The notes under the pieces are model-generated. The model made no database searches. It was not told the DNA's origin and was given only the letters and a program-made list of their open reading frames with translations. A stretch of DNA of 63,735 bases, filler included, from Lenisia limosa (taxonomy: Eukaryota; Protista; Breviatea): assembly GCA_001655205.1 (NCBI GenBank). It is 13 parts of 13 records of this genome, joined end to end, with 100 filler letters (N's around TTAATTAATTAA, not from the genome) between each part and the next. Parts side by side here need not be neighbours in the genome. Positions count along the whole stretch, not along the records: positions 4,628 to 9,019 come from LPNZ01008294.1; positions 9,120 to 11,082 come from LPNZ01008637.1; positions 11,183 to 12,556 come from LPNZ01004142.1; positions 12,657 to 14,701 come from LPNZ01011149.1; positions 14,802 to 18,626 come from LPNZ01003177.1; positions 18,727 to 30,444 come from LPNZ01010245.1; positions 30,545 to 44,096 come from LPNZ01007666.1; positions 44,197 to 51,089 come from LPNZ01011211.1; 5 more parts are not named here. The stretch is one strand, 5' to 3'. A program made the translations under genes and the position numbers. Below are positions 4,990-63,560 of this stretch, in pieces (the stretch's first letter is position 1; the number at the start of each line of letters is the position of its first letter).

Positions 4990-7900
4990 ATACCCCACAC
5001 ACCAAGGTAGTAAACAGGCTGTTCAAACAGGAAAATGAGCTGGCTGGCATCGTAAATGAATAGGAAGCTTGGCAGAACCGGAGTACCCGGGCACTGGCAT
5101 TCTCCTAAGGGGGGGGGGAGTAAAACGAAGGAAACTTCGATGAAGAATACTGGTGTAAAGGGACTAATCAAATACCGAATAATCTGCAACTCCAAACAAA
5201 AAAACAAGCAATAACAAACACGAGCAAACGAAGGAAAACTCGATGAAGAATATTGGTATAATTGGAATAAAGAAAATTACAGCCCAAAATCTTATAAAAA
5301 AAAGGGGGGATATTAGATTNNNNNNNNNNNNNNNNNNNNNNNNNNNNNNNNNNNNNNNNNNNNNNNNNNNNNNNNNNNNNNNNNNNNNNNNNNNNNNNNN
5401 NNNNNNNNNNNNNNNNNNNNNNNNNNNNNNNNNNNNNNNNNCTCCCTTTACTAAAACAAAACAAAAAACAACACTGTGGAAAAACTCCCCATCAAACAAC
5501 GGTCCACCATGAGTAATGCACCATATAACGGTTTGAAATGCATATTAACGCAATAATAATCAACAAATACGTATAGTGTATTCTCAAACATATCCCAAGC
5601 CATATCATATGCACTTTACTGAGGCTTCCCTACAGTCCCAAAAAAGACTGAATTTCTCGATAAATACTCGATAAATAACGATAGTTTACCGGTCCTTTTC
5701 GGACCGTAGGGAAGCCCAATTTACACCCCCCCCCCCCAACCATTANNNNNNNNNNNNNNNNNNNNNNNNNNNNNNNNNNNNNNNNNNNNNNNNNNNNNNN
5801 NNNNNNNNNNNNNNNNNNNNNNNNNNNNNNNNNNNNNNNNNNNNNNNNNNNNNNNNNNNNNNNNNNNNNNNNNNNNNNNNNNNNNNNNNNNNNNNNNNNN
5901 NNNNNNNNNNNNNNNNNNNNNNNNNNNNNNNNNNNNNNNNNNNNNNNTAAAAAAAAAAACAACTCTGTAACAAAAAAGGCAAACTCAACTGTGTAACAAA
6001 CATGTCAGTCTTAAGAGTGGACAACTAATCAAATCCGGCCTATTTCTTGATGATTGATACTCAAATTGATGAATATCTGATCTTACAATAAAAGAATGTT
6101 TGAGATTTACGAGTTTTAGTCCCCACATACCGAGAGAGAGTACTTGGAGATTTCGAACGATTTGAGCACGTATACTTCAGCAACGAATTGCTGGGGGTGT
6201 TAGCGAGGGGAGGGGCGTACAATTGGACAATTTCTGTAACAAAAATAAAAGCCGAAATCAACCCTGTTGGCTGACAACACAAGAGGGTAACCCCCCCCCN
6301 NNNNNNNNNNNNNNNNNNNNNNNNNNNNNNNNNNNNNNNNNNNNNNNNNCAACAGGGACAACTTCGGTGACAAAACCCATGCCTTCAACAGCGGCGGTGA
6401 TGGTGACGATCGTGTCGGGATCGGGGTCGGTGATGCTGAGGAACGAGAAAACCTTGTTGGTTGCAGTGTTGTCCAGGATTAGAGCCTGGTGAGTGAGTGG
6501 AATTTAAGAATTAATGTAATAAAATGGGTAAGATAATTAAAATGAACTGAACTGAACTGCCCATCACCAACCTTGGTTTGGACCACAGACGTGTTGTCAC
6601 GGGTGTTGGTCACAATTCCGGTGCGGATGACGGGGTCGTTTGTGCCAATTTCTACGGGGGGGGGGGNNNNNNNNNNNNNNNNNNNNNNNNAGATAGCATA
6701 TAAATAGGGCTTCGGCTCGAGAAATCCTCGAAAACTAACGATAAATTACCAGTTAAGTGAAGGCCAATATAATAGAGAAATATAGTAGTACTTTCAATAT
6801 ACTATACATTACAATATTTACATCAGATGATTATGTACAAATAGCGCTTCTCTTCGGTTCGACAAAAGACTAAATTTCTCGATAAATCCTCGAAAACTAT
6901 CGATATTTACCAGAATTTTTCGAGCCGAAGTGAAGCCCTATGTACAAAAACTTAACAAGAATGGATAGTAGCAGAGAAGTCTCCAATGAAAGGAGCGGAT
7001 ACGATGATTGCATTCATTTATTTGATCTTATGCTATCATTTCGTACAGTGACCGGGATAAACCAATTTTCCTTGGGAAATCATATCAAATCGGTCAAGAC
7101 TTATCCCAGTCACCGTACATAAAAGTCCTGACACGGAATTTGAGCTTTATCTTAAGTTATCGTATCAAGACTACAACAGCCTGCGTATGACTACATTAGG
7201 TCTATGTATGGTATTGATAATTACAATTTTAAAATGCATAAACAATAATCACTTACGGATAGTTACGGAGAAGTCTCCATTGAAATGATCAGATACGATG
7301 ATAACCATTTCTTTCAGCTCGAAGTTGAGCACGGCGGGGGACGACATGGACTATAAGGGTGAGATATTTGGGGAAAGTGAAAAACAATGCTGGGGTGAAA
7401 TAAGGGGAAATTTGTGAAAGGTGTGGTGGGTATCATAAACAAAAACAAAACAAAGGAAATTTCAATGATGAACGCGAAATAAAGGTACCCAATTGAGAAA
7501 TTTAAAGCAGGACTTGGTGTTTCCTTTGTTCCCTTCGTTTACCCCTCCAAAAGATATAAGCGGATATTAATAGCCCCCCCNNNNNNNNNNNNNNNNNNNN
7601 NNNNNNNNNNNNNNNNNNNNNNNNNNNNNNNNNNNNNNNNNNNNNNNNNNNNNNNNNNNNNNNNNNNNNNNNNNNNNNNNNNNNNNNNNNNNNNNNNNNN
7701 NNNNNNNNNNNNNNNNNNNNNNNNNNNNNNNNNNNNNNNNNNNNNNNNNNNNNNNNNNNNNNTACGTAACCCGGCTCACAAAACCCGCGCACAAGAATCC
7801 CAAGTCAATACGCCGTAGTGTAATACTACCCCCCCCCTACAGAGACAGACGGAGATACAGTGTGACTGCCGAGACGAATCGAAACGGCCTCGTGACTTGA

Positions 7901-8320
7901 GAAAACGGCCCAGGTTATGGGAGAGAATGATCCAAGAGATTTCCCCTCATTCTAAGGGGGCGGTGAGAGCGCTGATTGTTTTGACAATTGTCAAGTTTCA
8001 GATTGATTCAAAATTGAATATCCCCCCCCCCCCTCNNNNNNNNNNNNNNNNNNNNNNNNNNNNNNNNNNNNNNNNNNNNNNNNNNNNNNNNNNNNNNNNN
8101 NNNNNNNNNNNNNNNNNNNNNNNNNNNNNNNNNNNNNNNNNNACAATCTGAAGGGGTGAGGTGGGCACAGACAAGTAAAATGGGAATATTTATAAAACAA
8201 AAAGCCCAAAATCAACACTGTTGGCTTGTAATACACGAGGGTAAAATCAACAAAACAAACAAAATCGACTCCGCCCACCCGCACATAAACGCTATCATAT
8301 GATCTGGCTAATCTCATTGT
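4990..8320 (-). CDS. Fragmented multi-exon gene, probable secreted or surface protein with a beta-sandwich (cadherin/Ig-like) repeat
   Basis: Exons with canonical boundaries: EIGTNDPVIRTGIVTNTRDNTSVVQTK (about 6570-6652), ALILDNTATNKVFSFLSITDPDPDTIVTITAAVEGMGFVTEVVPV (6350-6487), GECQCPGTPVLP (about 5010-5104), SMSSPAVLNFELKEMVIIVSD (about 7270-7348). Interrupted by many N gaps. Confidence 0.4.
5105..5300. repeat. Dispersed repeat family D with a G/C-run end
   Basis: (G)nGTAAAACGAAGGAAATTTCGATGAAGAATATTGG..CCGAATAATCTG.AACTCCAAAC; copies at 1050-1111, 3060-3109, 5105-5300 (head duplicated at about 100-nt period), 50207-50340 and 53108-53160. Confidence 0.75.
7046..7115. mobile_element. Tc1/mariner-type MITE family E (70-85 bp)
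   Basis: TA|CAGTGACCGGGATAA..TTATCCCAGTCACCG|TA; further copies at about 9587-9663, about 10165-10226 and 56265-56346. Confidence 0.75.
8148..8278 (-). repeat. Dispersed intronic repeat family C (about 130 nt); this copy fills a whole predicted intron
   Basis: Consensus GCGGTGCTGCAGAAGCGACTGGCCTGGGCTTTGTTTGTTTTG..AACCCTCGTGTGTTGTCAGCCAACAGAGTTGATTTTGGGCTTTTTTGTTTCATAAATTTTCCAATTTTAC(C)n; about 18 copies in the window. Confidence 0.85.
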
Positions 8321-9252: not shown

Positions 9253-10313
9253 GGCCATGGTGAGGCATCGGAGGTGGAGCTTCAAGGAAACCTCTATTTT
9301 GGCGATGCGGATTCCCCAGCTCAAGATGCTAGTTGGGAGGGGTATTGCATGTACAGCGACCGGGATAAGTCTTGACTGATTTGCAATGTGATATACAGCG
9401 ACCGGGATAAGNNNNNNNNNNNNNNNNNNNNNNNNNNNNNNNNNNNNNNNNNNNNNNNNNNNNNNNNNNNNNNNNNNNNNNNNNNNNNNNNNNNNNNNNN
9501 NNNNNNNNNNNNNNNNNNNNNNNNNNNNNNNNNNNNNNNNNNNNNNNNNNNNNNNNNNNNACAGTGACCGGGATAAGTGTGATATACAGTGACCGGGATA
9601 AGTCTTGACCGATTTGCTATGGGATTTACCAAGGAAAATAGGTCAAGGCTTATCCTGCCACTGTCTATATCATATTGATATATTACTGCAGTATTGTTAG
9701 TCTTGTGTGTGTAGGGTAGTTGTGATATTATTTAAACAAGTCTGTTGATTTATGCCAAAAAAACACAAGTTCAAAAATATTTTAGCTTCAGTCAGATTCT
9801 ATTATCCAAAATCTCTTATAAGCGTGGTGGTGGACGGCTTCGGCCAGATACTCCATATTTTTATTGTCTATTTCTGTCACAACATCTCTAATTATTCCAG
9901 TGGTTCCTGTTGGTGGTGTAACTGCTTGGATCCCGGTTCCGGCCAACGCCGAGCCCCCACAAGGTATTATTATTTATTTATTATTTGCTTTTTTGGGGTT
10001 TTTTTTTTTTTGNNNNNNNNNNNNNNNNNNNNNNNNNNNNNNNNNNNNNNNNNNNNNNNNNNNNNNNNNNNNNNNNNNNNNNNNNNNNNNNNNNNNNNNN
10101 NNNNNNNNNNNNNNNNNNNNNNNNNNNNNNNNTGATTATTTCACTAGTGGATATGGGTCGACATTCTGACCGGGTAAGTCTTAACAGATTTGCGATATGA
10201 TTTCCGCCAAGACTATCCCGGCTACTTATCACAACGCTTCGAGCTCTCCTGCAATTTTCTCACACCTTAGGCTGGGTCATTTGTGACGGCCGCACCATTG
10301 AAAATGAAAAAAG
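9253..10313 (+). CDS. Partial gene containing a phage tail-collar-like domain
   Basis: Exons about 9253-9331, 9901-9963 and 10271-10313 splice in phase to ..YFGDADSPAQDAMVPVGGVTAWIPVPANAEPPQGWVICDGRTIENEK, matching the tail-collar pattern PvGti.afag..aP.GWl.CDG. Confidence 0.7.
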
Positions 10314-17465: not shown

Positions 17466-18380
17466 ATGTCAACTACGTTTGCAACCTCCGGATCACCCCT
17501 TCTTCAGTGGGAATGGTGTTATATTTATTAAATACTGTAATATTCTGACGCAGGCTGACTTTTCACCAGGGGATTCTGGTCGCTGTCTGATTTGGACGAG
17601 AAGAAACGCAATGAGGCCATTGATTTCTTGGTTACCAGTGTAAAAGAGGCCCAAAGCAAGGTCGAGAACAAAACAGAGTATTCTGAGGTTGGTGACCTCG
17701 CTCTAACTGACCGTCTGGGGGCCTCTTCTCGCTTACCCTTCTGCAGGAGCTCAGATACTCCCTCAGAAGGCTTCTTAGGGGCGTGAGTTCCGGTGAGAAG
17801 GCCGCTCGTCAAGGCTTCTCAGCATGCCTATCCACGATCCTGTCTATCGAAGGTTTGTTCCCCTCCGCATGCCGTGTTAGCTGCTTATCTGTTGAGGGGT
17901 TTGGTCTTGTTTATGACGGGGTTTATGCATAGTAGTAACTGCGATTTAGATGTTTCATTGCGTGAGCGTTATTTAGTTTGGTAATGCCAAAAGGGATCGT
18001 ATTGTTGGTCTTACGATATTCTCTATTCGTTACTCTCATAATGCAACAAGAAAATTCGATATTCATTACTCTCATAATGCTATAAATGATTATGTTAGGG
18101 TTGATGGGATGCGGTGCTGCAGAAGCGGCCTGGGCTTTGNNNNNNNNNNNNNNNNNNNNNNNNNNNNNNNNNNNNNNNNNNNNNNNNNNNNNNNNNNNNN
18201 NNNNNNNNNNNNNNNNNNNNNNNNNNNNNNNNNNNNNNNNNNNNNNNNNNNNNNNNNNNNNNNNNTCATACATTTTCCAATTTTACCGCCTCCCCCCTAG
18301 AGCTTCCTCTTGACGCTGCCAAAGTCCTTGCCCAGGGACAGGAGCTCATTCCGCTGACCGGCACGGGCATGTCCAAGGCG
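17466..18380 (+). CDS. DNA polymerase phi / Pol5 / MYBBP1A-like nucleolar protein, 5' exons
   Basis: Spliced: FWSLSDLDEKKRNEAIDFLV..ELRYSLRRLLRGVSSGEKAARQGFSACLSTIL, matching the family motif YaL.RLirGlaS.re.AR.GFs.aL. Cut by the linker at 18671. Confidence 0.8.
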
Positions 18381-20015
18381 TAAGGCGGGGAGAGGGGGAT
18401 ATTGCATTTGAAAGCACCAGTAATCTTGAGAACTCTTCGTTTCAATACAATGCACAAGTTAGATATTTCATGTGAAGCCAGTTTCTTACCCCACTGGAAT
18501 GAAATACCCTCATTCTGCAGAAGCGACTGACCTGGACTTTGTTTGTTTGTTTTTACCAACGCTCGTGTGTTGTCTGCCAACAGCGTTGATTAAAATTTCC
18601 ACTCTTACCCCCCCTTGTGTTAGCTCNNNNNNNNNNNNNNNNNNNNNNNNNNNNNNNNNNNNNNNNNNNNTTAATTAATTAANNNNNNNNNNNNNNNNNN
18701 NNNNNNNNNNNNNNNNNNNNNNNNNNCCTGCTCCTGCCATCATTATCGGAGTCTTCGGGGTGATTGTGGTTGATCAAATAATATGGTATCTGGCTTTATT
18801 TTGGCTTTTCTATGCAACACTAACGATTTAAGCAACGACAACATCTTGTCTGAGGCTCCAACGGTGGAATCGATTACGGCCCAAATCGAGCTTGTTGGGG
18901 GGGGATCTCAATTGGTGGCAAGTGGGGTCTCCGTTGTGATTCAAGAATTACATATAGTACATAAGGGAAAATCTAAGGGAAACAAATAAATACAGGGGTA
19001 CTATAAACAAATTACCATAGCGCTACACCTCCACAATCAACCTGGTGACTTCATAGATGAAAATGCGGGTCCAAGAAGACGCTGCTGATGCTGCTGATTT
19101 GAGAAGGCGGAGAAAGGTGCGTTAGCGTTCTGGACAAATAGCAAAATTTCTGTGTAATTGCAATCTCATTCTTTTTTTTTTATCTCGTATCCCCATTTCT
19201 CCAATACATATACATATATCGATATGTATACTACTATATATAATCTTTCACCCATGCTTACCTCCTAGCGCTCCTCCAATAACCTTGTTGCGAGTACAGA
19301 GAAGGAGAAGGTGCCGCCCACTCCCAAGGTTGGCTTTTAATAATATTACTTTTTGGTTACATAAATATTGCTTGGTGCACAAAAAATCATGATGTTAGCT
19401 TTATTGGAATGGTGTATTTCTTAGCCTTTTCAACCATCCGATCCATTGTCTCACACCACTTCAGAAAGAGAAGAAGAAGCCCGTTCGTAAACCGAAAAGG
19501 AGGAGAAAATGGGATAGCGAGGAGGAGACGGAGGAAGATGATGATGAGGAGTATTTGGAGGAGTATAACTAGCCTCGTGGTTGTATATTATGTGTAGTTG
19601 TGTATTTTTAGTTTATTATTATGCATCATTTTGACTATTCCTTCGCAGTAACTCCTCTCCGAATAATCATTAAAAGGGACGTACATACATATTCAGGGGA
19701 AAACTCTCTATTGAGAGATACCGTTTCAACAGCCCCCTGACATTCATCTTGGTTTTACCGTGCGAGTTCATAAAGAGTCACTTTATTTCGCAATTCTCTG
19801 GACGAATTGAAAAGGGGATAATCTTTGGCTCATTAAAAAGGTTGCGAAAAAAACCTTTTATTTTTTCATTTTGTTCATACACTACCCACATTTTATATTT
19901 TTGACACTACCTCCTTTTTAGATGAGCCGATAATCGTGACATTCTTCCTCCTCCGCCCGAGCAAACCAAGGTTGATAATAACTTATAACCTTGCATAATA
20001 ATAATGAAGAGATAA

Positions 20016-30250: not shown

Positions 30251-30488
30251 ACTGAAACAATAGTTTCGCTTTGGTCTGACTAAGAATATGAAAATGTTGA
30301 TATTTTTCGTCCAATGTTTTGTTGTTTTCAAACCTCTTGTGTTGCTAACCAGATTTGATTTTGTGCACTTTTTTTGTTTTTGTGTTTCATAAATTTTTCC
30401 AATTCACTGCGGTGCTGCAAAAGCGACCGGCCTGAGCTTTGTTTNNNNNNNNNNNNNNNNNNNNNNNNNNNNNNNNNNNNNNNNNNNN

Positions 30489-44096: not shown

Positions 44097-44257
44097 NNNN
44101 NNNNNNNNNNNNNNNNNNNNNNNNNNNNNNNNNNNNNNNNTTAATTAATTAANNNNNNNNNNNNNNNNNNNNNNNNNNNNNNNNNNNNNNNNNNNNAGAG
44201 TTGATTTCGGGCTTTTTTGTTTCATAAATTTTCCAATCTAACTCCCCACCCTCCCAG

Positions 44258-47200
44258 ATTCGGACGTGAGCGGTTTCCTGAGCCCCCTAGTCTCCCCATC
44301 TCCCGTCTCCTCGCGCACTGCGGCATCGCAGGACTATAGGCAAACAGCTGGAAATATCAGTGACGGTGACACTGACGTTCGAGTACCACAACCTCGCAAG
44401 TCGCCAGTGCTACTGCTTTCACCGCTCCAATACCATTCAGATAAAGACCCCGAGAAGCCTCCCACCGGAACGTCAATTAGCAATTCCCTACAAACTTCCC
44501 CCGAAAAACCCATCCTTGATGAATCTACTCCGCCCACCTTCACAGAACTCCCAAAAACTCCCTCTAGCAATTCCGCGGTTAGTCTGGGATCTTCACACCC
44601 CTCAGAAATGCAAACGCAAAATTCAATTCCCCCCGAAAATATCACTGCTGATTACCCCGAAATCTCCCGGGTACCTGAAGCGAAGTCGGGCACCTCGGAA
44701 GACAGCAGGGGGGTACCAGAGCCGACCTCGCCAAAAAGGCCCGAGGTTTTGCCGCTTGTCACGTCATCACAGTTCCAAGTGGTTTCGCACAACCTTTCAG
44801 ACCAATTAATTCCTCCGATCGAGGCTGAAGAGGTATGTTTGAATGTTTTTGGCAAAACAACACAATGGCGCATTGACCTGTCTTTTTTTTTCACACGTAT
44901 GGACTATCATTTTCCAGTGATATGATACCTCATATCCACTTGTGTGATAATTGACCGACAAGTTAATGATACTCTGATACACTCAGGATGAATCCCCATG
45001 TAACTTCGTTCATCATTTCGACTTGAAAGTCGGTCATATGATCATATCACCAGTGGATATGGGTCAACATGTCAATAATACGGATATATACATATTATTA
45101 TATATTACACAAAACTACTAGGGCTTCACTTCGGTTCGAAAAAAGACTGAATTTCTCGATAAATCTTCGAAAACTATCGATATTTTACCTGTTTTTCGAA
45201 CCAAAGTGAAGCCCTAATTATTACATATGTTGAATGACATTCTTAGATCCTACCACCCAGATGTGAATTGATTAGATCAAGGTTTGGGGGAGTGGGGTGT
45301 ACTATGCGCGAAGCTTGGGATATAATAATAATAAAAAAAAACAGAAAACAAAAGAAAAAACATAAAGGAAAGAAGAAAAAAGTGTGCCATCATCATCATC
45401 ATCATCTTATCTTAACCATCATCAACAACAAAAAAATTATAATCATCACCATCTTCATCTTCATCTTCATCNNNNNNNNNNAAATCATCATCTTCAACAC
45501 AACAAATTCATCTTCATCACCCCCCCCAGGTCTTTGGAATTCATTGCATCACACATATCTGCAAGCCCAAGCACGAGAAACGGCCAGGTAAATTGAGGGG
45601 TCTAATTTGGGTTAGTTGTTCTCTACCCCTCGTGTGTTGCTAGACAACAGAGTTTATTTTTGGATTTTTTTTTTTTTTTTNNNNNNNNNNNNNNNNNNNN
45701 NNNNNNNNNNNNNNNNNNNNNNATAATCATTTCTCCAGATTTCCCATTACTCCACCATCTTTTCTCTTTCACTTCAGCAAATCCTTTCATTCATTTCTCC
45801 AGATTTCCACATTTTCAACAGCAAAATTTAGCCCCCATGCAGCCCTTAAAGAAGGCAAGGTTGTCGTTACCGGCGTCTCTCAGACGGACTGGTGCAGAGT
45901 GGGGGGTGTAGCACTTGAGTTTATATACTGCACATGTATGTTATATCATCAAGTCGATGCGCCATAGTGTAACCGATGGTCACTGGCCGGCCCGAGGAGC
46001 CTCTAAGGGATCAGATGGCCCTTTTCTAGGGCTCCATGCAATTATTTGAAAAATAATTGCAAAATTTGAAATGCGACAAATTGTAATGTTAACTAACTCA
46101 ATTTGAGACACTTTAATTGCAAACTTTATAAATTTCTTCAATAATAGCACGGAGTTCTAGTAATCATAGAGATGAGTAATAAAAAAAACTTTTTTTTTCT
46201 CATCTATGATTATTATGAAAAAAAAAACAATAAGTTGCATTTGGCAGAAGCCATCCACCCCACCACGCTGATAAGATATTGGATTTTAGAATACTATACT
46301 TTTTCCATTGGCTTTTCCCTCACCCCTATAGACACGACAGCGTGCGAACACACAGCCAATTATGTCCATGTTTAATAGGGAAAATGCCGACGACTTTGTT
46401 TCACATTCAGTGGGTATTATTTCTCTTGTTAAATAAAAACATAAACTTGTTTCCAAAATTGTCCAATGGTACCATTGTCAAGTTGTAGCGTTGATTATTC
46501 GATTAGTACCTTTATGCCAATATTTTTCATCGAAATTACATTCGTTTGACCCCGCCCCCCTCACAGACCCGATCCCGTGGGCTGGCCATTAACACCACCG
46601 CCTTGGCGCCCCCAGCCTACNNNNNNNNNNNNNNNNNNNNNNNNNNNNNNNNNNNNNNNNNNNNNNNNNNNNNNNNNNNNNNNNNNNNNNNCGCTCACCT
46701 TCGAATGCAAACTCCGACAAGTGAAAGGTTTGGGCTGGGCTGCCTTATTTGGAAGATTTCAGTTGTCTTATTTGGAATGTAGTTGTTGTGTTTGGAAAGT
46801 TACCTACAATATAGGCCGTATTGTGAAGATGGGCTTTACAATATGTTGTTTTTTTCGTACGCAATATTATGCCAATTAGTGGTTATTTTTTATGGTATCC
46901 GATGTATTCTTTTTTTATACATACATAGGTATGTGGGGGGTTGTACCTACATATGTATTTTATTATGCACGCATATAGCTGTGCACACAGAGTTGTAAGG
47001 CAAATGATTGGGTGAATTATATTATATTCCAANNNNNNNNNNNNNNNNNNNNNNNNNNNNNCTTATCAGCATGATGGTGTGGACGGCTTCGGCCAGATAA
47101 AACACTTGTTTTTTGTTTTTTTTTCATCTCAAAAGTAGTTATCATACTATGATAGATATATTCTTTTGTATCTCGAGATTAGATTTATTTTGCAGATTAT

Positions 47201-50200
47201 CTTGCTTTCACAAAACTGATCGCCCTTGATTCCCCTGTAGTCCTTTAGAAGAATCAACCCCTTCTTCCGCTCCCTCTCCAATCCTCAGGAATTCGCCTCA
47301 AGTTCCTCGTGACGTTAACATTGTCAAAAAGGTTACGCTAAGTACCAAGTTCAGCCAAGATGTTGATGTCTGCACGGTTCTCTCTTTTTGAAGTAAAAAT
47401 TCTAGGGCTCCGTGCAATTAATTGAAACAATAATTGCAAAATTTGAAGTGGGACATTGTGTAATCGGAACTCCTTTTCAGACACTTTAATTTCTAATTTT
47501 GTCAATTAATTTCCTCAAAAAATTAATTGCACAAGCCCTAAGAAAATATCCAAAGTGTCATACATATGCACATGCATATTTTAAATGTATATTATTATAC
47601 AATATATATAAATATGTATATATGTTTNNNNNNNNNNNNNNNNNNNNNNNNNNNNNNNNNNNNNNNNNNNNNNNNNNNNNNNNNNNNNNNNNNNNNNNNN
47701 NNNNNNTCTTTTTATTAGGTACATGTTGATGATATATGTATGTATGATATGAAAAAATATCTTACGTACGCTGGAGTGATAGGAGGCGGTGCTGCAGAAG
47801 CGATTGGCTCGGGCTTTTTGTTTTGTTGTTATCAGCCCTTGTGTGTCAGCCAACAGAATTGATTTTGGTCTTTTTTTTTTTGTTTCTTAAATTTTCCAAT
47901 TTTAAAGTTGATTTGGGCTTTATGTTTCATAAGTTTTCCAATTTTACCCCCCCCCCCCNNNNNNNNNNNNNNNNNNNNNNNNNNNNNNNNNNNNNNNNNN
48001 NNNNNNNNNNNNNNNNNNNNNNNNNNNNNNNNNNNNNNNNNNNNNNNNNNNNNNNNNNNNNNNNNNNNGACGGTCAGCCAGAAATGCTGTTACCAGACCT
48101 GCTAGATTTCGGTTTGTGAGTAAATCACATTAAAATTCAATATTAATGACGATATTTTGTACCTTACACCTCACGCCCGACACCAAGCTGCTACTTATTA
48201 TTAATTCACCCAATTAGAAACCTTCCCACTCTGCTTAATCTATAAATCTCTTATAAGCGTGCTGGTGTTTGCTTTGGCGAAGGTTTAATCCCCCTTCACT
48301 TGTGAATATCCTTTTATTGTTCAAAAAAGGGAACATACCTCCTTCTCTTAACTATTAATGCGTTACTTTGACATGTTTCATTACCCACCCTGCTTAGATC
48401 GATCCTACACGGAGCTACTCACCTCCAATCGCTTCTTCGCTTCCTTCCTCAGAGACAAATTGTCGTATCTGGATGTGGAAATGGAGAATCAAGTGGGGGG
48501 GGGCGGTAAATTTCGGTGAACGTCGGCTCGGCTCGGTTCAATTCGGAAAAGGGCTTTTTGATCTCAATTCGGTTCGATGAATTGATGAAATACCGAGCTG
48601 AACCGAACTGAATCGAAGTGAACCGAAGTGAAACTGGGGAGGCACGCAGAAAGCTGTGTGCACAGACTACATATATCGTATTTCATTTCTTCACACCCCA
48701 GTACACTGACGATCTTCTCGAGTCCTTCCCTTTCCTCAAAAACGACATGACGCTTCTGGTGGCCTCTCATTTTATCATGATAACAGGGCTTTTGTTCGAG
48801 CTCAATGAGTCGTCGAATGCGTAAGTGGGGTGTTTTTTTTGTGTGTGTGTAAAGCAGGGTGCCAACAAAAGGTTTTCACTTCAGTTCGAAAAATCCCGGT
48901 AAAATTTCTATCATTTTTGAAGATTTATCGAGAAATTCACCCTGTTTTCCAACCGAAGTAAAGCCTTAGTGCCAACCCATAAACTGGCTACATTATTACA
49001 TCACTGCGTTGAATTGACTATGTTAGTCAGATGCTACCTGTTTTCATTTCTCATCTGCTGCAGCGGCCTGTCCATTTTCCTAGCAGTTGTCCTGCTACTT
49101 CTTGCACTCGCTACGCTCAACATCCACTTGCTGCTGGAAATCCTGCGATGTGACGAACCTGGAAGCGCGTTAGCTTTCATCCATATGTGCACCATGGTGA
49201 CTGTGGTGAGCAGAGGAAATTGGAATCTTTGATATTTCTGGAGTTATTTTGTTATTCAGTCGCTAATTAATCTAATATGTTTAATGTATATTCCATGTCA
49301 ATATATTCCATGTCTATTCTCCCACCTCATTTGTTCTGATTTCCAAATTTATCATTTTATCTCCTCAGCTACTTACCAACACTTTCAACCTTGGAATTGG
49401 CACATTTTGCGTGGCGCTGGCGTCTGTGCTTGCCACGCACACTCTGGCCTTCTCAAAACTGGTTCGTGGGGGTTATTATCTTTTATGGATTTCATCAATT
49501 ACTTTCTAGCTTGGAGACGGAGTGTGGAACCTAAGAATCCTGCTCTTCAACTCCCTGATCTTTACCCTGTGGTTCCTTGCCAAAATGTCATGGCCGCGAC
49601 TTTGGATTTCTGCCGTTCTGATTTTTGCTCTTTTTGTCGGTATGCTGGGGAGGAACGCTGTGTGAAGAGTTGTAAGGAAATTGATTGGGTGAATTAATAT
49701 TATACTATGATTCAATATCTCTTCTAAGTGTGGTGGTGTGGACAGCTTCAGCCATATTCAACCTTGTTTTATTTTACAGAAGGATACTATGTTGCTATCA
49801 TTGTTTGTGTCCCTCTTTACCTGAAATAAACTATTTAAACACATTACTGCATTTAAGATTTTTTGTAACACGCCAGGCCTGAGCGTGGCCTTCACACTCA
49901 TCTCTAATGACACTCTTGGCGTTAGAGTAATAAAAAAACTCTAATACAACATTATGGGCAATAAATACTCCAGGTAAAAGCATAAAAAACAACTCCGATA
50001 TATTATGACAGGCTATGACATGCATTAAACAACACCCCTTGTTTTATTTCTTTAATTATAACGCGCCAGGCTTGAGCGTGGCCTTCAACAACGCGCAAAT
50101 GACGCGCAGAATGGCGTGTCGCCACTATCTCCTGGTATGCTCCGACCTCGCGGTTTTCGACTTCCTACGCCGCCGGTTTCACCCCGTCATTATCCGGGCT

Positions 50201-52759: not shown

Positions 52760-54320
52760 CAAGACCAGAGGGATTGGGGCCCCAACCGGGGGGAGGGGCA
52801 ATAGATACGGGCAAATCCGGCGATTCTGAGGACTCTGNNNNNNNNNNNNNNNNNNNNNNNNNNNNNNNNNNNNNNNNNNNNNNNNNNNNNNNNNNNNNNN
52901 NNNNNNNNNNNNNNNNNNNNNNNNNNNNNNNNNNNNNNNNNNNNNNNNNNNNNNNNNNNNNNNNNNNNNNNNNNNNNNNNNNNNNNNNNNNNNNNNNNNN
53001 NNNNNNNNNNNNNNNNNNCCTCCCCCCGCACCAGCAGCAATTTCAAGCGTATCAATTTGGTCTTTTTCCTTCGTGAAAGCCACACTATCCTTCCTCTTGG
53101 TTCGGGTCTGGAGGGAAAGTAAAACGAAGGAATTTTCGATGAAGAATATTGGTGGGATTGGGGGATAGGGTTGAGTCCTACAATCATATGATATGATATT
53201 ATATGATAATATATACAACTATAAAATAAGATTGTATCTGGCCGAAGACGTCTACCATCACGCTTACTATAGATATTAGATTGTAGTGTTAGTAACTTAT
53301 ACAAATTCACCCAATCATTTGTGTGACACTCTGTGTACACAGATTTCTGCCATGGGTACAACGATGACCCCAAAAACCCCGGCCAACTTTCCTTTTGCGG
53401 TTGGCTGCGGCGCCATCATCATCAACTGCTGTGAATAGTCAGAGAAAATATGATTGTTTGATTTTTTTACAATTATTTTTGGGGTTTTCTGTTACTGTTC
53501 ATGTTTTAGCTGCTAAAAGAATATTTTGTAGTAGAAATACTGTTTATTCAAAAATAAAGTAATCTGGCCGAAGCCGTCGACACCACTAATTCAAACAATT
53601 ATTTGCTTGTTAAGTATTTAATATAAAGGTGACTGGCTTAATTTCGAAATTTTTTTTTTAAAAAAAACAATGAGAGAATTGAAAAAAATACCATACCGCA
53701 TACCTGCTACTCTTGATTTCGACTTTTTCGGGGGTTGGATTCTAGAAGGTGAAGTGGTAGAGGGGGGGTTAATTGACAAAAAAAAAAGCCCAAAATCAAC
53801 TCTGTTGGCTGACACACATGAGGGTAAAAACATTTCAAGGCCATCATTCCAGCTTACTTGAGGGTGGGAGGGATGGCACTCTTGGGACAAGTGATGGTTG
53901 TGACAAAGGCTTTGTCATCTAGCTTCTCTGGGGCTGGCATGTTGAATTTGTCTTCATGTCTAAATTGTGAAAAACATATTTACGAATGAAAAGTGTTCCC
54001 TATGCTCCGAAGTTGGTCGAAAACTATCGATATTTATCGAGGATTGGTCGAGAAATTCAGTCTGTTTTTAGGACTATATGGTCCAAAATCTCTTCGCTAA
54101 TAGTATACACAGGGCTTCCTTCCCGTCGTCAATAATACCTAGGGATTCCCTGCGTCCGAAAAAGGCCATCAAAATATCCATATTTTTTGAGGATTTCAAT
54201 ATTGGGATTCGGTCTTTTTTGAATACCCCAACAAACGATGATTCACCATCGGCTGAATTGAGCCGTCGAGCTGGCGAGGAAAGGCCAACTCCCCTTCCTA
54301 AATGATGGTTAAGACCCGAG
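52760..54320 (-). CDS. Unassigned exon fragments
   Basis: In-phase exons RHEDKFNMPAPEKLDDKAFVTTITCPKSAIPPTLK|IQPPKKSKSRVA|AVDDDGAAANRKRKVGRG and TRTKRKDSVAFTKEKDQIDTLEI. Confidence 0.45.
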
Positions 54321-54865: not shown

Positions 54866-56767
54866 GGTCGCAGACGAGCCCGGACTTAAGGCCACTCAAA
54901 AAGAAGACATTGTTGTGCAACCCCCAAGGTAGCTTTGGAAAGAAGAAAATGCGTTATATTAAAAATAGGGCAGTGAGGATTCCGGTGTAAAGGCGTTACA
55001 TTAAAACTTGGGGAGGGAAGACGGTATACGGCGTTTGGAGGAGTTTTGCAGCCATACAAAATATACAGGGAGGAGGGTATTTGTATTCATCAAGGCGTCT
55101 GTATATTCTGTATGGCTGCAAAACTCCCCTAAACACCGTACTCCGTCTTCCCTAGTTTTAATTATATACCCCCCCCCCCCNNNNNNNNNNNNNNNNNNCC
55201 CTATGGGAAGTGGTGCTGCAAAAGTGACTAGCCTAGGCTTTGTTGGTTTTGTTTTCAACCCGTGTGTGTTTCCCAAATGCTTGCCAAATAGTGTTGATTC
55301 TGGGCATATATACAAGTTTCCGAAATTTTACAATTTTACACCTGGCCTGGGTTTTGTTTGTTTTGTTGTTCTCAACCCTTGTGTGTTGTCAGCCAACAGA
55401 GTTGNNNNNNNNNNNNNNNNNNNNNNNNNNNNNNNNNNNNNNNNNNNNNNNNNNNNNNNNNNNNNNNNNNNNNNNNNNNNNNNNNNTCGAGGATTTATCG
55501 AGAAATTCTGTCTTTTTTGGGACCGTAGGGAAGTCCCAGGTGTAGCTTGAGTGTGGTGATGATTGTCGTGGTTTATGATGATGCCCAAGAAACAAAAGAT
55601 GCATCAAGTCGAAACAAAACAATTATTTTGGCAGAGAGGTTTAAACTTACCACATTCCAGCCATGATGAAGCCCACGAAACGTCCGAGGAAACTTCCAGT
55701 GAAACTACTGAGGAAGCGAAGGCCGGTGATGAGAATGGCGAAAAAACCAAGATCCCCGAGGAGGAGCCTAAGACTGCTTTCCAGAAGGCAAAGGTACGAA
55801 TGGGCTTTGTTTGTTTTGGTGTTATCAACCCTCGTGTGTTGTTAGCCAATAGAGTTGTTTTGGGCTTTTTTTTNNNNNNNNNNNNNNNNNNNNNNNNNNN
55901 NNNNNNNNNNNNNNNNNNNNNNNNNNNNNNNNNNNNNNNNNNNNNNNNNNNNNNNNNNNNNNNNNNNNNNNNNNNNNNNNNNNNNNNNNNNNNNCATACG
56001 ACCGGTTCCAAGTCCGCAAGCAAGTCAGCGACCAAGGCGAGTTGTCACGGTGGGGGAGGGTGTTCGGTATGGTGAAGGATGATAGTTTATCTTGTGGAGG
56101 GTGGTGAAAGCATGACAGAGGGATGCGTGTCTTGTGGAGGGTGGTGATGATTGTTATGGTGGGGGAATATTTGCATCAATACGTCGCAGTATGCTATTTA
56201 CACATATTATGATATTCTCTATACATACCAGGCTATCGCGGTGGGGTCTGAATAAATTAAAATATAGTGACCGGGAGAAGTCTTGCTTGATCAATTTTCC
56301 TTGGGAAATCATATGGCAAATCGGTCAAGACTTTTCCCGGTCACCATATATCTATCTTCGAAGCGTGATTGTGGGTTGCTTCGGCCAGACACACCCTTGT
56401 TTTATTCCTCATATCGAAGATATACTAACAAGTTTGTTGGCCCATTTCCACAAGTGATATGAATTGTGCCATTGATCTGATCATAACACGAGGGTTCATC
56501 CCGAGTGGAGCAGAATTTTGTGGAGACTTGTAATTCCCTTTGAATATAACCCAAAAAGTGATCTAATAGTAGTTCTCATCTGTGAAAATGACCCATTAAA
56601 AAATGTCGTAACATCCCCAGATTCCGCGCTCGTGTCTACGCAGTCACCGGCAAAATGGACGAGGAATACCAAAAAGACCTCGAAAAGGCTGCTGAGAAGG
56701 AAGCGGCAGAGAAGCAGAAGAAGGAGGAGGAGAAGGCTCGGATTCTGGAGAAGAGAAACGCCAAGTA
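54866..56767 (+). CDS. 3' part of a charged (E/K-rich) protein of unknown family
   Basis: Exons HDEAHETSEETSSETTEEAK..KTAFQKAK and TGKMDEEYQKDLEKAAEKEAAEKQKKEEEKARILEKRNAK*. Confidence 0.5.
55014..55154. repeat. Long imperfect inverted repeat (about 54-bp arms, about 31-nt spacer)
   Basis: gggaagacggtatacggcgtttggaggagttttgcagccatacaaaatatacag pairs with ctgtatattctgtatggctgcaaaactcccctaaacaccgtactccgtcttccc, with about 6 mismatches. Confidence 0.9.
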
Positions 56768-57289
56768 GGGGTCGAGGGGTGTTTCGCTTTGTTTTTATGT
56801 ATTGTTTCATTTTTTTCCTCAGGCATTGGACTCACAATTTCCTTGAAAACTGAAGGGAAATTTCTTTGAGGCACCTGTTGTTGAATTAAGGTGAAATGAG
56901 CATGGTATAAGGAATATACACCCATTGAAATGAGACGTTTAGATTTTGTTAAACCCACTTCAACGGCACATCGACTTGGGATTCTTATGAAAAAGTTGGC
57001 GCGTATCATGATTCTCATGCTTTCTTCTGTTACCGAGTCCACAGGAATCCCGAATCGGAAAATGGGAGACCCCCCCCCCCCNNNNNNNNNNNNNNNNNNN
57101 NNNNNNNNNNNNNNNNNNNNNNNNNTTAATTAATTAANNNNNNNNNNNNNNNNNNNNNNNNNNNNNNNNNNNNNNNNNNNNCAAAGCCCAGGACAGTCAC
57201 AGCGGACTTGCTGATATAAGTGGGATCACTGGCGATCCTTAGCTCTCTGTAAAAAAATGCAATAGCGCCGAATTATGTTAATATAACTT

Positions 57290-58579: not shown

Positions 58580-61100
58580 ATGATGATTGCACGACAGATT
58601 GCCCGCCCTCTTCTTCGTAACTTCCGCCTGTTCTCTGCTACTGCTTCTCTTGCTCACGAAGCTACTGCTGCTACTCCAACAAAGGAATTTGTCCGTATGC
58701 TCTATTGGTTTTGTTTTCACAGATTTATATAAGTCCCTTAAGCGTGGTTGGTCTTTAATATGATTAGTTCCCCCTCTTCCATATCCCATTGAGAACGGTC
58801 TCCAGCCCTGTATCTCACCTGCCGCCCTTGACCTTCACTACAACAAGCACCATGCCCTCTATGTAACGAAAGGTGAGTGAGAGAAACATAATTCGGTCTC
58901 CTTGGTGGACTCTTGTTAGTGAACGTTTTCTTCACTTATATGTCTTACCGGTTTAGCCAACACTGTCCTTGACCAGATCCAAGATGAGAACATTGACCTT
59001 GTTAAGACCATCTTTAACTCAAAGCGCGACCCCTCCAGAGCCTTCATGTTCAACAACACTGCTCAGATCTGGAACCACGACTTCTTCTGGAAGTGCATGA
59101 CCCCAGGCGGCGCCGAGGTTCCTGAGGATCTCCAGAAGAGGCTCAACGACGACTTCGGCTCTTTGGAGAAGTTCAAGGAGGAGGTTTGCCAAGATGACGT
59201 ATCATGAGGATCTCGATTGCTGGAGAGAGGGGGACCCTTTTGTCATGGAAATATTGTGAAAGCGTTTGAACCCAGTTATCTTTTGTCTTGTTTGGGCTGG
59301 TTTCCTTTTTTTNNNNNNNNNNNNNNNNNNNNNNNNNNNNNNNNNNNNNNNNNNNNNNNNNNNNNNNNNNNNNNNNNNNNNNNNNNNNNNNNNNNNNNNN
59401 NTTCTTCATTACTTTTTCATTTTGCCAGTTCTCAAGCAAGGCTCTCAACCACTTCGGCTCCGGCTGGTGTTGGGTTGTTGGTATGCGGGGGGGTTGGTAT
59501 GAGTATGAATAACAGATTCCTATAAAGCTGTGTACACAGAGTTGTAAGGCAAATGATTGGTTGAATTGCGGCCCTTGAAGGCTAGAAAGACAGTAGTATT
59601 AAAGCTGTGTACACAGAGTTGTAAGGCAAATAAGGCATGCAGGAAGCTGTTTGCACAGAGTTGTAAGGCAAATGATTGGGTGAATTAAAATTATAATCCA
59701 ATATCACTTATAATGATGGTGTGGACTGCTTCGGCCAGATACAACCTTTTTTTTACTCTCGTTTCTATACAAGAACAATAATTATTAATTGATCCCTGCA
59801 TCAGCCGCCGGATGTCTATGGTCCTAGTTTCAATAGAGAATTTACTGCCAAAAAAAGCACTTTTCTTTCAAAAGCTCATCCGTAAACTTTTTTCTTACCC
59901 CTCATTCGACCACTTTTATCCATGCACTTTTTTTTCTTTCACCCCTCATCTAGGGCTTCATTTCGGTTCGAAAAAAGACTGAATTTCTGGATAACTTCAT
60001 GAATACTATCGATATATCCCTGGTTTTTTTTTTTGGAATTGAAGTGAATCCCTACCGACATCCTATCACTGTCTCTCACCTTCATTCCTACTATAAATAA
60101 AGCTGCGACAAGGACCAAAGCAACCCTGCAACTATAAGACTCTTTCAAATGGAATGATAAAGAATAGCCTGTTAAGCAGGTACATGAATACTATGGTAAT
60201 CTGAAATGTAATTTCATCTACACTCTTTCTCTCACCCACATCCTTGCACTCTTTCTCACCCCAATGCAGAGGATGTGGATCACGCCTCTGCCTTCCGCAA
60301 GCTGAAGATTGTTACCACGCCCAACGCTGGAGTGCCGTTTGTTGATGGCCTCCACCCCCTGCGTAGGCTGGAGTGATGGTGCGGCGCTTCAGAAGCGACN
60401 NNNNNNNNNNNNNNNNNNNNNNNNNNNNNNNNNNNNNNNNNNNNNNNNNNNNNNNNNNNNNNNNNNNNNNNNNNNNNNNNNNNNNNNNNNNNNNNNNNNN
60501 NNNNNNNNNNNNNNNATTATCTCAACTTGCATCTTTATGTTTTTGATCTTTCTAACGATTTAGTTACTCTGGACATGTGGGAGCATGCGTAAGTGGGGCT
60601 CAGGAACCAGGGCTTGTGGAGGAGGTCCCTGTTCAGGAACCAGGGCTTGTGGAGGAGGTCCCCGTTCAGGAACCAGGGCTCGGGGAGGAGGTCCCTGTTC
60701 AGGAACCAGGGCTAGGGCTTGTGGAGGTCCCTTTCTATTTTGCGTTTATCCCCGGGGTAATACATGCAGTATTTCATGTTCTCTCTCTTTGAGTTAAGCG
60801 GTTGAATTGATGTTCTAGTTTCTATTACGACTACCAGAACCGTAAGAACGAGTATGTCGAGAACTTCTGGCAGGTGTGTGTGCAATTGACATCCGAAAAG
60901 AGTCAATATCAGAATGCATTATATGGATAGTGTAGCTCGTATAATTCTCAGAATGATCACAAATTTCTCCAAAAACACTATAACTATCCAAATTGTATAA
61001 CAGAAAAGATTATAAACTTGGAGTATATCCCAAACACCTCAACCTTACCTCCAAGGTTGTTAACTGGGAGTTTGTCAATGCTCGTCTTGCGATGGAGTAG
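58580..61100 (+). CDS. Fe/Mn superoxide dismutase, Fe-type signature, with N-terminal mitochondrial-like presequence; 8 exons, complete
   Basis: [20 protein letters not shown]..; [15 protein letters not shown]; [17 protein letters not shown]; FGSGWCW; TTPNAGVP; [38 protein letters not shown]. All four metal ligands (H, H, D, H) are present. Confidence 0.95.
59641..59750 (-). mobile_element. Non-TIR dispersed repeat family B (110-130 bp), Helentron/HINE-like
   Basis: Consensus AACAAGGTTGTATCTGGCCGAAGCCGTCCACACCATCACGCTT..TTCACCCAATCATTTGCCTTACAACTCTGTGTACACAGCTTT. More than 15 full or partial copies on both strands (4710, 9815, 14935, 29262, 37695, 38931, 46225, 46977, 49660, 53230, 53558, 54515, 56365). 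Mechanism is inferred. Confidence 0.6.
60595..60732 (+). repeat. 33-bp minisatellite (about 4 units) in SOD intron 6
   Basis: Unit gttcaggaaccagggcttgtggaggaggtccct. Confidence 0.9.
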
Positions 61101-61329
61101 ATCCAACCCCCAGTATTTTTTGTTTCTGTTGTTTCATAAATATATATCCCTCTGTTTCCCTCAACTTGGTCGATTTTCTGACTCAAGAGCATTCTTATGG
61201 GACCGTATTTAACTATCGATATTTACCGGCCTTTTTCGAACCGAAGTGAAGCCCTAGTTATAATCGTCGAGCTCCAGTGAGATGAAGAAATAAATAGAAC
61301 AAAAAGAGAGACAAAACGAATAACTTAAA

Positions 61330-63560
61330 TCATGAAAATCGAGCCATCCACACAGCCGATAGCGAGAGTGTCGTGGTCGTTACTGTCGTGGTTAGATCAA
61401 ACACCATCTTTAAGGGAAAAGTGGTTTGGCGCCTATGAACCCCCAAAAATAATAAAAAGACGACCAAATAAAACAGATGAACATGGTGATAAATAAAGGA
61501 AAGATGGTAATTAAGGGTTCCCTACGGTCCCAAAAGACCGAATTCCTCGATATATCCTCCATAAATATCGATATTTATTCGGTCTTTTTCGGATCGTAGG
61601 GAAGCCCTAATGGTAATAAAAACAAAGAGGTCCAAAAATGATGATCAAAAAAGAGGACCAATATGGTAAGAAGCAAGCAGCCAACCTGCAGCTATGCAGG
61701 GCAGTGGGAGTGGAAGGAATGGGGATGGCCGCGGAAAGTGCCAGTTCAGTGGGAGGCGCATGCGTAGGGATGTCGTAGATGATGATGGCGTGACTATGAG
61801 CAACAACAAGCCGGTTGCCACTAAGGCCTGTAATGGCGACAATCGGGAAGTCTGGGGGGGGGGGNNNNNNNNNNAAGCAAAAAAAAAGCCCAAATAAACA
61901 AAACCTCTCAACAACTGTTGAAGAATAATGATATAAACCCATTTGCCGTAATAATCCTAGCATATATCGATATGATGAAAATTAGAAAAAAAAAAGGGGA
62001 TCAAACAAAAAAAACAAAAAAAAAACAGTTGGCATACCGANNNNNNNNNNNNNNNNNNNNNNNNNNNNNNNNNNNNNNNNNNNNNNNNNNNNNNNNNNNN
62101 NNNNNNNNNNNNNNNNNNNNNNNNNNNNNNNNNNNNNNNNNNNNNNNNNNNNNNNNNNNNACGCAACACAGGCAATGTCGCCAATAAAGGTTGCCTAATA
62201 TGGTAAGTACGAACAAAAAAGGTTGCCTACTATGGTAAGTAAGAATAAAAGTCCTAACATGGTTAAGTCCGAACATGTTATTCTCACCATTCTTGTGCGA
62301 CTGTTCTTTGGAAGGTGGGTCACAAAGCTGCCATGGCATGATTGCTGCTGGAGTAAGATATTCTCAACTTGTATTTTATGATGTATAGAAATGAAACATA
62401 ATAACGGTAGTATCGCGCCGCGTGTGTTAGAATACGTGCGTATAAATGGAAACTTCTTATGAAGCAAAAATCAAATTTGTTGGCCATTTGGGCAACATAA
62501 GAGGGCTAAAAATAACAAAACCAAGGTCAGTCGTTTCGCATCCATCCTTGCNNNNNNNNNNNNNNNNNNNNNNNNNNNNNNNNNNNNNNNNNNNNNNNNN
62601 NNNNNNNNNNNNNNNNNNNNNNNNNNNNNNNNNNNNNNNNNNNNNNNNNNNNNNNNNNNNNNNNNNNNNNNNNNNNNNNNNNNNNNNNNNNNNNNNNNNN
62701 NNNNNNNNNNNNNNNNNNACCGACAAAAAAGCCTCTCTTGGCTACTCATTTGGATAACATACGAGGGTTAAAAACAACAAAAATAACAAAGCCCAGGCCA
62801 GTCTTCTGGTAGCCCCCACTTCAACGTTTTCTCAATACCCCCAAAAACACCAACACCAATAAGGATCCCCCATACACAGTACCAACACCAATAACAACAA
62901 CAGCAAGAAGAACAAGGCAGTAAGAGCAACAGCAATAAGAGCAACAGCAAGAACAACAACAGCAGAGAGCAACAGCAATAAGAGCAACAGCAATAAGAAC
63001 AAAGCAATAAGAGTAACAGCAATAAGAATAACAGCAATAAGAGTAACAGCAATAACAACAACAGCAATAAGAGCAACAGCAATAACAACAACAGCAATAA
63101 GAGCAACAGCAATACGAACAACAGCAATAGCAAACCCCCATACGCAACGGGGATGGTGTTGGCTTTCATGCGGGTGATGGCATCCTTGTAGTGCAGGCTG
63201 AGGGGGGGTGGGGATAATTGGAAAATTTATAAAACAAAAAAGTCCAAAATCAAAGGAAAATCTGGGATTTTTATGAGGAAGAGAGGTGTAAAGGTAAGAA
63301 TCACGAGGTGGCGAATAAGGATCGCATTTATTTTATGACAAATAGGAGGCAGGAGGGGAGAAAGAGTCAACAAAATAGACTGTTTAGGCTCAGATAAGTC
63401 TAGTTGTTTAGTGACGGCAACTCTTCCGGATACTTAACTTATCCGAACATACGATCCAGTTCCAATTGAGTCTTTATTGCAAAAATAAAAGAACATACTT
63501 GGGGGGCATGTGGTCAACAACACCGTTTTTCTTGTCGCCTCGAAGGATACTGGAGTGTGA
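61330..63560 (-). CDS. Exon fragments of a probable beta-propeller (WD40-like) protein
   Basis: LHYKDAITRMKAN; DFPIVAITGLSGNRLVVAHSHAIIIYDIP; PTALHSC; DTLAIGCVDGSIFMI*. Confidence 0.4.
61512..61609. mobile_element. hAT-type MITE family A2 (about 100 bp), same core as A1 with variant TIR
   Basis: TIR consensus TAGGGCTTCCCTACGGTCC; perfect 8-bp TSD ATGGTAAT on both sides of this copy. Other copies at 5620, 12804-12904 (attatatc/attatctc), 55487 and 57558-57657 (ataattag/attattag). Confidence 0.9.
62885..63135. repeat. Degenerate 15-bp tandem repeat (CAACAGCAATAAGAG)n, intronic
   Basis: Directly visible; it explains the spurious poly-Leu and poly-Cys ORFs. Confidence 0.9.

What the first reader, a model, noticed from the sequence alone, without database searches (positions are those of the whole stretch)
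5948..63265. Orientation-locked, intron-filling repeat family C (introner-like or intronic RNA)
Seen: about 18 copies (6191, 8148, 18107, 18522, 30322, 37540, 44197, 45590, 47780, 53742, 55206, 55795, 60375, 61852, 62478, 62722, 63198). Each has its U-rich strand on the sense strand of the predicted host gene, whether the host is + or -; families A and B occur in both orientations. Its C-run end runs into the acceptor AG at 6191, 8148, 18623, 44257, 53742, 61852 and 63198. It begins just after the donor at 8278, 37541, 45589 and 55795. Introns 8148-8278 (131 nt) and 53742-53857 (116 nt) consist almost entirely of it. It carries an internal hairpin CTC(G)TGTTG-tcagc-CAACAGAG and shows no TIR or TSD. 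Known: introner elements create introns and are orientation-restricted. Inference: an intron-generating mobile element, a splice-signal-donating SINE-like element, or a multi-copy intronic ncRNA.
Basis: partly seen in the sequence, partly recalled or inferred. Interest (0 to 1): 0.8.

Follow-up and report, generated by a model that had tools for sequence, protein, structure and literature searches.

The report
Old introner-like repeat supplying splice sites
A 120-170-base repeat lies only on the sense strand inside introns of an unidentified eukaryote, supplies working splice sites and fills one transcript-confirmed intron end to end; it is likely an old, decaying intron-making mobile element (introner) of a kind known from algae and fungi.

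Summary
Family C is real. All 16 intron loci (10-11 genes) are sense.

The element is longer than reported. Its consensus runs from a GT-headed 5' header to a C-run plus AG, so it has the form of a whole intron.

Transcript evidence: the intron at 55794 is family C from donor to acceptor (about 122 nt); one copy starts at a superoxide dismutase donor (60363); one ends at the acceptor 63198; a tandem pair (55204, 55342) sits inside a longer intron. 53857-53742 is whole by reading frame only; 8148-8278 is unverified. Most copies fill only part of their intron.

No terminal inverted repeat, target-site duplication, covariation or Rfam match was found. Median identity is 68%. Family B is also mostly sense and fills one intron, so orientation lock is not unique to C.

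Best reading: an old introner like Micromonas IE-A, probably spread through spliced RNA. Intron gain could not be tested (no orthologous loci). The scan's index holds no sequence look-alike, only unrelated introner reports.

The parts
6191..6299 (-). C copy ending at acceptor AG (6191); intron at most 160 nt (6350-6191), 5' part in a 50-N gap; likely a whole-intron copy
   Evidence: profile hit; joined frame open
8148..8278 (-). C copy from a GT to an AG; exon partners unverified (downstream exon in a gap)
   Evidence: protein search with a nearby exon empty
18095..18300 (+). C copy: header, 126-N gap, tail ending at acceptor 18300; 5' end probably inside a longer intron
18494..18623 (+). C copy starting 114 nt after donor 18380 and ending at an AG 3 nt before a gap
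30315..30444 (+). two C copies head to tail inside an intron, running into a linker gap
37540..37654 (+). C copy near a probable donor (37544); terminal AG lost; followed by a B fragment and a separate acceptor near 37754
44197..44257 (+). 3' half of C ending at acceptor 44257, before a long open exon
45588..45680 (+). C copy starting at donor 45588 of intron 45588-45821; acceptor lies beyond the copy
   Evidence: frame only
47766..47958 (+). most complete copy (GT-headed header to C-run) with duplicated tail; donor use unverified, 3' end in a gap
53742..53857 (-). 116-nt intron filled end to end by C
   Evidence: joined frame open; no transcript protein found
55204..55404 (+). two tandem C copies inside intron 54929-55660, touching neither splice site
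   Evidence: transcript-derived P0027
55794..55873 (+). visible part of an intron that is C from donor to acceptor (about 122 nt in another DNA contig; the rest lies in a 121-N gap here)
   Evidence: P0027 (spliced) and P0026 (read-through)
60363..60399 (+). C header starting exactly at the donor of SOD intron 5 (60363-60563); the last 48 nt of that intron are not C
   Evidence: RNA joint; splice model reproduces P0001 exactly
62437..62551 (-). C copy ending about 90 nt before acceptor 62345; 5' end in a 167-N gap that probably hides an exon
62724..62828 (-). C copy after a 15-nt tandem repeat; 3' end in the same gap
63198..63253 (-). 3' third of C forming the acceptor of intron 63498-63198
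   Evidence: RNA depth gives exon pieces of 54 and 34 nt as predicted
61852..61940 (-). acceptor region with faint C likeness; membership doubtful
   Evidence: RNA piece starts at 61852; no profile hit
58580..61100 (+). host gene: Fe-type superoxide dismutase, 7 introns
54867..56768 (+). host gene for P0027 (154 aa, no Pfam family)
49640..49779 (+). family B copy filling an apparent intron end to end (companion family)
   Evidence: frame only

Best explanation
Family C is a repeat that carries a GT donor at its 5' end and a C-run plus AG at its 3' end, lies sense in introns, and is likely an old introner: a mobile intron whose copies would have been inserted into transcribed genes, probably through the spliced intron RNA, making new introns in exons and remnants in older introns. 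Shown: repetition, sense orientation, use of its ends as donor and acceptor, one whole intron, internal tandem copies, no TIR or TSD. Inferred: mobility, creation of new intron positions, the RNA route (reverse splicing into pre-mRNA or R-loop DNA, as proposed for Micromonas), a branch point in the conserved tail, and decay or later insertion as the cause of one-ended copies.
For: Whole-intron copy at 55794. The spliced protein P0027 continues directly after the donor. The read-through protein P0026 from another DNA contig runs through C core and C tail (83% identical to the translated tail at 47907) and ends exactly as AG plus the next exon predicts; only 16 of 288 codings of that exon start allow this. 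Whole or near-whole copies by frame at 53857-53742 and 6350-6191. In transcript-confirmed introns, 4 of 10 C copy ends touch a splice site against 0 of 12 ends of families A and B (Fisher p=0.029; uniform placement p<=6e-4). 16 of 16 loci are sense (p=3e-5; 10 of 10 genes p=0.002), including copies that touch no splice site. Exon flanks are unrelated and show no duplication beyond 0-3 nt. Header/tail complementarity equals composition (p=0.37-0.60). Micromonas IE-A shows the same mix of sense-only, whole introns, remnants in older introns and nested or merged copies (PMC3879977).
Against: Only 1 confirmed and 2 likely whole-intron copies among 16 loci. Of 15 resolvable 3' ends, 6 are at supported acceptors, 2 at unverified AGs and 7 at none. 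In one-ended introns the other 48-245 nt look like ordinary intron, which fits insertion into older introns equally well. Median identity is 68% over 78 pairs, unlike young introners. The header is partly a general donor motif (a looser form occurs at several non-C donors), and C-rich acceptors are common here (41 of 127 visible C-runs precede a YAG). Family B is also sense-biased, and antisense C would expose A-runs (13 vs 0), so selection could produce the orientation. No ortholog comparison was possible.
Confidence: 0.55

Rival explanations
1. C is a mobile splice-signal cassette that inserts at or beside existing exon-intron junctions and takes over one splice site. It lengthens and remodels old introns and creates few or no new intron positions; whole-C introns arise when the old sequence is lost.
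For: One-ended introns outnumber whole ones: 60363 (RNA) and 45588 have C at the donor only; 63198 (RNA), 18300 and 18623 have C at the acceptor only. Some introns look like stacks of modules, e.g. B near a donor and D at the acceptor in 53348-53117, C then B in 37544-37754.
Against: No relic AG directly before, or GT directly after, the visible element ends. The clean 122-nt and 116-nt whole copies need complete loss of an older intron. Many inner junctions are hidden in N gaps.
Confidence: 0.25
2. C is an ordinary non-autonomous DNA element or SINE without terminal signatures. It inserts in either orientation; antisense copies are removed by selection and splice-like ends are occasionally adopted.
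For: B is also about 14 of 17 sense. Antisense C carries 13 A-runs or AATAAA against 0 in sense. Tandem and truncated copies occur. 2 of 4 SOD introns without repeats are as U-rich as C.
Against: It does not explain both ends coinciding with splice sites in the same intron, nor 4 of 10 against 0 of 12. No antisense hit at E<0.05. No tRNA-like head, TIR or TSD.
Confidence: 0.15
3. C is a multi-copy intronic non-coding RNA (snoRNA-like) processed from the lariat, and the hairpin is its functional core.
For: Sense-only and intronic; the hairpin pairs in 89% of cells.
Against: No Rfam hit at any C copy at E<=1. 0 of 8 pairs show a two-sided change. Folding z-scores run from -1.9 to +2.3 in 7 copies. 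Copies are truncated at varied points and 68% alike.
Confidence: 0.03

Closest known systems
Micromonas introner elements, class IE-A (PMC3879977: passages and section 11 read; PMC4540971: passages read)
   Same: Repeated spliceosomal introns only on the sense strand of transcribed regions; partial remnants inside older introns; nested or merged copies; reverse splicing proposed as the route.
   Different: IE-A is mostly whole and conserved (6,112 introns against 463 remnants). Here remnants and one-ended copies dominate and identity is about 68%. Novel intron positions are shown for IEs and untested here. Sequence homology to IE-A was not tested.
Introners in general (PMC9860276: parts 1-3 of 7 read; PMC12130899: part 2 of 7 read)
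   Same: Length within the reported 30-654 nt; several families per genome; families without TIR or TSD exist; similarity reaches the splice boundaries.
   Different: Only a minority of C copies would pass the both-ends filter. No autonomous partner or transposon class could be assigned.
Fungal introner-like elements, ILEs (PMC3609843: part 1 of 3 read)
   Same: No TIR or TSD; carry donor, acceptor and pyrimidine tract; decay towards regular introns.
   Different: ILEs have stable predicted structures; C copies do not fold better than shuffles in 6 of 7 cases.
Repeated [D1,2] stwintrons of Hypoxylaceae (PMC8469720, PMC12403724: search listing and abstract start only)
   Same: Repeated intron-like units nested at a splice site.
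   Different: No nested two-step arrangement was seen or tested here.

Membership tests
Introner (Gozashti 2022 criteria) | multi-copy sequence in introns of non-paralogous genes | tested here: met
   16 loci in 10-11 genes with unrelated exon flanks
Introner (Gozashti 2022 criteria) | similarity reaches both splice boundaries | tested here: inconclusive
   met at 55794 (transcript) and 53857-53742 (frame), likely at 6191; not met or hidden at 13 of 16 loci
Introner (Gozashti 2022 criteria) | spliced out by GT-AG splicing | tested here: met
Introner (Gozashti 2022 criteria) | creates new intron positions (absent in orthologs or alleles) | not testable with these tools
   no genome held; one study only; no true copies in other collections
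Micromonas IE-type | sense strand of transcribed regions only | tested here: met
   16 of 16 loci; one window only
Micromonas IE-type | high within-family identity | tested here: not met
   median 68%, range 55-90%, 78 pairs
MITE-derived introner or MITE | terminal inverted repeats | tested here: not met
   summed header/tail complementarity at shuffle level, p=0.37-0.60
MITE-derived introner or MITE | target-site duplication | tested here: not met
   0-3 nt at 4 C-containing introns, only one of them whole; old copies could have lost it
Fungal ILE | stable predicted secondary structure | tested here: not met
   z from -1.9 to +2.3 in 7 copies
SINE | tRNA/5S/7SL-derived head | tested here: not met
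   ARAGORN 0 genes; no such Rfam hit
SINE | internal Pol III A and B boxes | not tested
   no scan run
snoRNA or other intronic ncRNA | conserved covarying structure or Rfam family | tested here: not met
snoRNA or other intronic ncRNA | stable small RNA product | not testable with these tools
   only a poly(A) contig set was available

The most novel reading that the evidence does not exclude
This genome builds its introns from several sense-only, splice-site-bearing mobile modules (C, B, D) that are re-inserted precisely at existing splice junctions and into each other, replacing intron ends. It would be a genome-wide record of spliceosome-guided reverse splicing, with thousands of copies, in a lineage where introners have not been described.
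Probability: 0.2. Interest if true: 0.8.

Novelty: new member of a known kind. Interest (0 to 1): 0.5.

Why it matters
How spliceosomal introns are gained, and whether any introners spread through RNA, is still open: most surveyed families show DNA-transposon marks, and ascomycete families are the outlier (PMC9860276). A dense family with no TIR or TSD that is sense-only even inside older introns would be a test case for the reverse-splicing model. Its many decayed and one-ended copies would show how introners turn into ordinary introns, a stage that both-ends screens miss.

Tried and rejected
TIR idea. By eye the 5' header looked complementary to the C-rich tail; shuffles show this is composition. 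Rejected.

Copies elsewhere. A 23-nt core pattern gave 0 matches in viral and metagenome contigs. A 21-nt pattern gave 2 metagenome, 2 prokaryote-genome and 0 viral matches; all 4 loci are isolated 22-25-nt matches in GC-rich DNA with no flanking similarity. Rejected as chance.

Motif searches in the supplements of PMC9860276 and 12 of 14 files of PMC12130899 found nothing. They are uninformative: the head rows shown have no sequence columns, and the PDF appendix of PMC9860276 could not be read.

Transcript-derived proteins were not found for the hosts of 6191/8148 or 53742. This is weak evidence either way.

RNA was laid on one segment only (57182-63735), so 44257, 45588, 47766, 8148 and 37544 lack RNA evidence.

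Zero RNA depth over C copies is not used as evidence: a real 25-nt SOD exon also showed none.

I first read 62478 and 62722 as internal copies of one intron. The RNA piece start at 62346 and the frame mismatch point to a hidden exon between them, so they were left out of the boundary count.

B-C homology: none by reciprocal profiles (best E 0.78).

Lineage: PDB and Atlas searches with SOD gave family only. P0027 has no Pfam family or Atlas hit.

The MIR319 Rfam hits lie on family A palindromes, below the gathering score. Rejected.
Full report
Setting. The window is an intron-rich eukaryotic scaffold: 37.8% of all letters are G or C, with 5,872 N and 12 artificial linkers, so context across linkers is uncertain. 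No whole genome is held. Two public runs from one study hold part of it: a poly(A) RNA run (X1) and a run that is probably the source DNA (X2). Recognisable genes are a proteasome subunit, a class III aminotransferase, RRN3, a weak FANCI-like hit and an Fe-type superoxide dismutase. The organism was not identified.

Is the family real? Yes. A profile from 10 copies found six further copies, while shuffled windows scored at most 7.4 bits. Copies are old: median identity 68% over 78 pairs. In X2, summed depth over two C-containing bins is about 500 and 67 times single-copy depth. The tool warns that this is no copy number; I take it only as a sign of a genome-wide repeat.

Anatomy. Upstream of the U-rich core lies a shared header that begins with a GT donor in three copies (47766, 53857, 60363) and continues as a G-rich motif also seen at 18111, 30409 and 55210. 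Downstream are a conserved tail, a C-run and AG. A branch point in the tail is my inference from the consensus, recalled rather than tested. Tandem copies or duplicated tails occur at 30315/30407, 47766/47904 and 55204/55342. Header/tail complementarity is no higher than shuffles give, and boundary repeats are 0-3 nt: no TIR, no TSD. The hairpin pairs in 89% of cells, with no two-sided change in 8 pairs over 10 copies. Whole copies fold no better than shuffles in 6 of 7 cases. Rfam and ARAGORN find nothing at C.

Transcript evidence. (a) RNA contigs and the spliced protein P0001 fix all 7 SOD introns. Intron 5 (60363-60563) begins with the C header at its first base, but its last 48 nt are not C. 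(b) P0027, from a transcript assembly, and P0026, a read-through of another DNA contig, share the exon ending at 55793. P0026 continues through C core and tail and stops exactly as AG plus P0027's next exon predicts, giving a 122-nt intron that is C end to end. (c) The same transcript places the tandem pair 55204/55342 inside intron 54929-55660, away from both ends. (d) RNA depth per bin gives exon pieces of 54 and 34 nt, as predicted for intron 63498-63198, whose last 56 nt are the C tail. (e) An exon is probably hidden in the gap between the 62724 and 62437 copies, so their inner ends are unresolved.

Frame-only evidence. Open joined frames support a whole copy at 53857-53742, a near-whole one at 6350-6191, acceptors at 18300 and 44257, and a donor at 45588. 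8148-8278, 18623, 37540-37544 and 47766 stay unverified.

Counts. Orientation: 16 of 16 intron loci are sense (p=3e-5), in 10-11 genes (10 of 10, p=0.002). One tail-only hit at 10459 has no assignable host and was left out. Boundaries, in transcript-confirmed introns only: 4 of 10 C ends touch a splice site against 0 of 12 ends of A and B (Fisher p=0.029); the two copies with unresolved ends were dropped. Over all resolvable 3' ends: 6 at supported acceptors, 2 at unverified AGs, 7 at none. Whole introns: 1 confirmed and 2 likely of 16.

Against an easy reading. Family B is also about 14 of 17 sense by hand assignment, and one B copy fills an apparent intron, 49640-49779. A further family D ends in a C-run at several apparent acceptors. 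C-runs before YAG are common (41 of 127), and a looser header motif occurs at non-C donors, so part of the coincidence reflects this genome's splice signals. Antisense C would expose A-runs (13 against 0), which selection could remove.

Mechanism. The simplest account of an element that is a complete intron, sense-only even where it touches no splice site, and lacks DNA-transposon marks is an introner copied through its spliced RNA into transcribed DNA or pre-mRNA. Exonic insertions would give whole introns, intronic ones would give remnants and tandems, and decay plus later insertions would give one-ended introns (0.55). The main rival is targeting of existing junctions without intron gain (0.25), then an ordinary element shaped by selection (0.15) and an intronic ncRNA (0.03). 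Mobility, gain and the RNA route are inferred.

Comparison. Micromonas IE-A is described as sense-only, with 463 degenerate remnants outside introns or inside older ones and with nested or merged copies, and reverse splicing was proposed for it (PMC3879977, passages and section 11; R-loop version in PMC4540971, passages). Fungal ILEs degenerate into regular introns but are structured (PMC3609843, part 1 of 3); ascomycete introner families lack TIR and TSD (PMC9860276). The survey definition requires similarity to reach both boundaries (PMC9860276, parts 1-3 of 7), which a minority of C copies meet. PMC12130899 (part 2 of 7) lists further origins and introners of unknown mechanism. C works like an IE-type introner; membership is not proven because gain is untested.

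Novelty. No true copy was found in viral, metagenome or prokaryote collections or in the scan's index; a word search returned other genomes' unrelated elements. Six literature searches showed no description that I could match to this family, but I could not search by organism, and the supplements seen show no sequence columns. Verdict: probably a new member of a known kind, interest 0.5; higher if junction-targeted stacking of several families is confirmed.

Noticed in passing
window 49640-49779 (+) and 22 other profile hits, e.g. 4695-4831 (-), 53221-53348 (-), 59523-59786 (+): Family B (about 130 nt) is mostly sense, starts at donor-like GT sites in some copies and fills one apparent intron end to end; it may be a second introner-like family. 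No profile homology to C.
   Followed up: partly
   Followed up: partly
window 10939-11044, 40406-40523, 45101-45227, 57531-57664, 59940-60054, 61501-61622 and others (24 segments): Family A is a palindromic MITE-like repeat of about 110 nt; 0 of 4 copies beside transcript-supported exons touch a splice site. It gives spurious MIR319 Rfam hits.
   Followed up: partly
window 46024-46139, 47400-47517, 57732-57815: A third MITE-like family whose ends resemble those of family A.
   Followed up: no
window 34725-35522 and 43205-44096: Inverted duplication with arms of several hundred bases (96% over 223 nt) flanking a gene that looks like an SGNH-type hydrolase by eye (no Pfam hit); could be a large inverted-repeat element or an assembly feature.
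   Followed up: no
window 60564-60588 (+): 25-nt exon in SOD carrying the conserved DMWEHA motif, flanked by the C-headed intron and by an intron with a 36-nt tandem repeat.
   Followed up: yes
window 62836-63140: 15-nt tandem repeat directly after donor 63143 (-), ahead of the 62724 C copy.
   Followed up: no
window 7061-7120, 9349-9655, 56262-56340: Another small dispersed repeat, partly tandem.
   Followed up: no
window 10459-10499 (+): Tail-only C-like hit (E 0.007) before a 351-N gap; many gaps follow C- or G-runs, so more copies may be hidden.
   Followed up: no
window 54867-56768 (+): Gene for a 154-aa protein (P0027) with an acidic stretch, one short hydrophobic segment and a charged tail; no Pfam family or Atlas hit.
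   Followed up: partly
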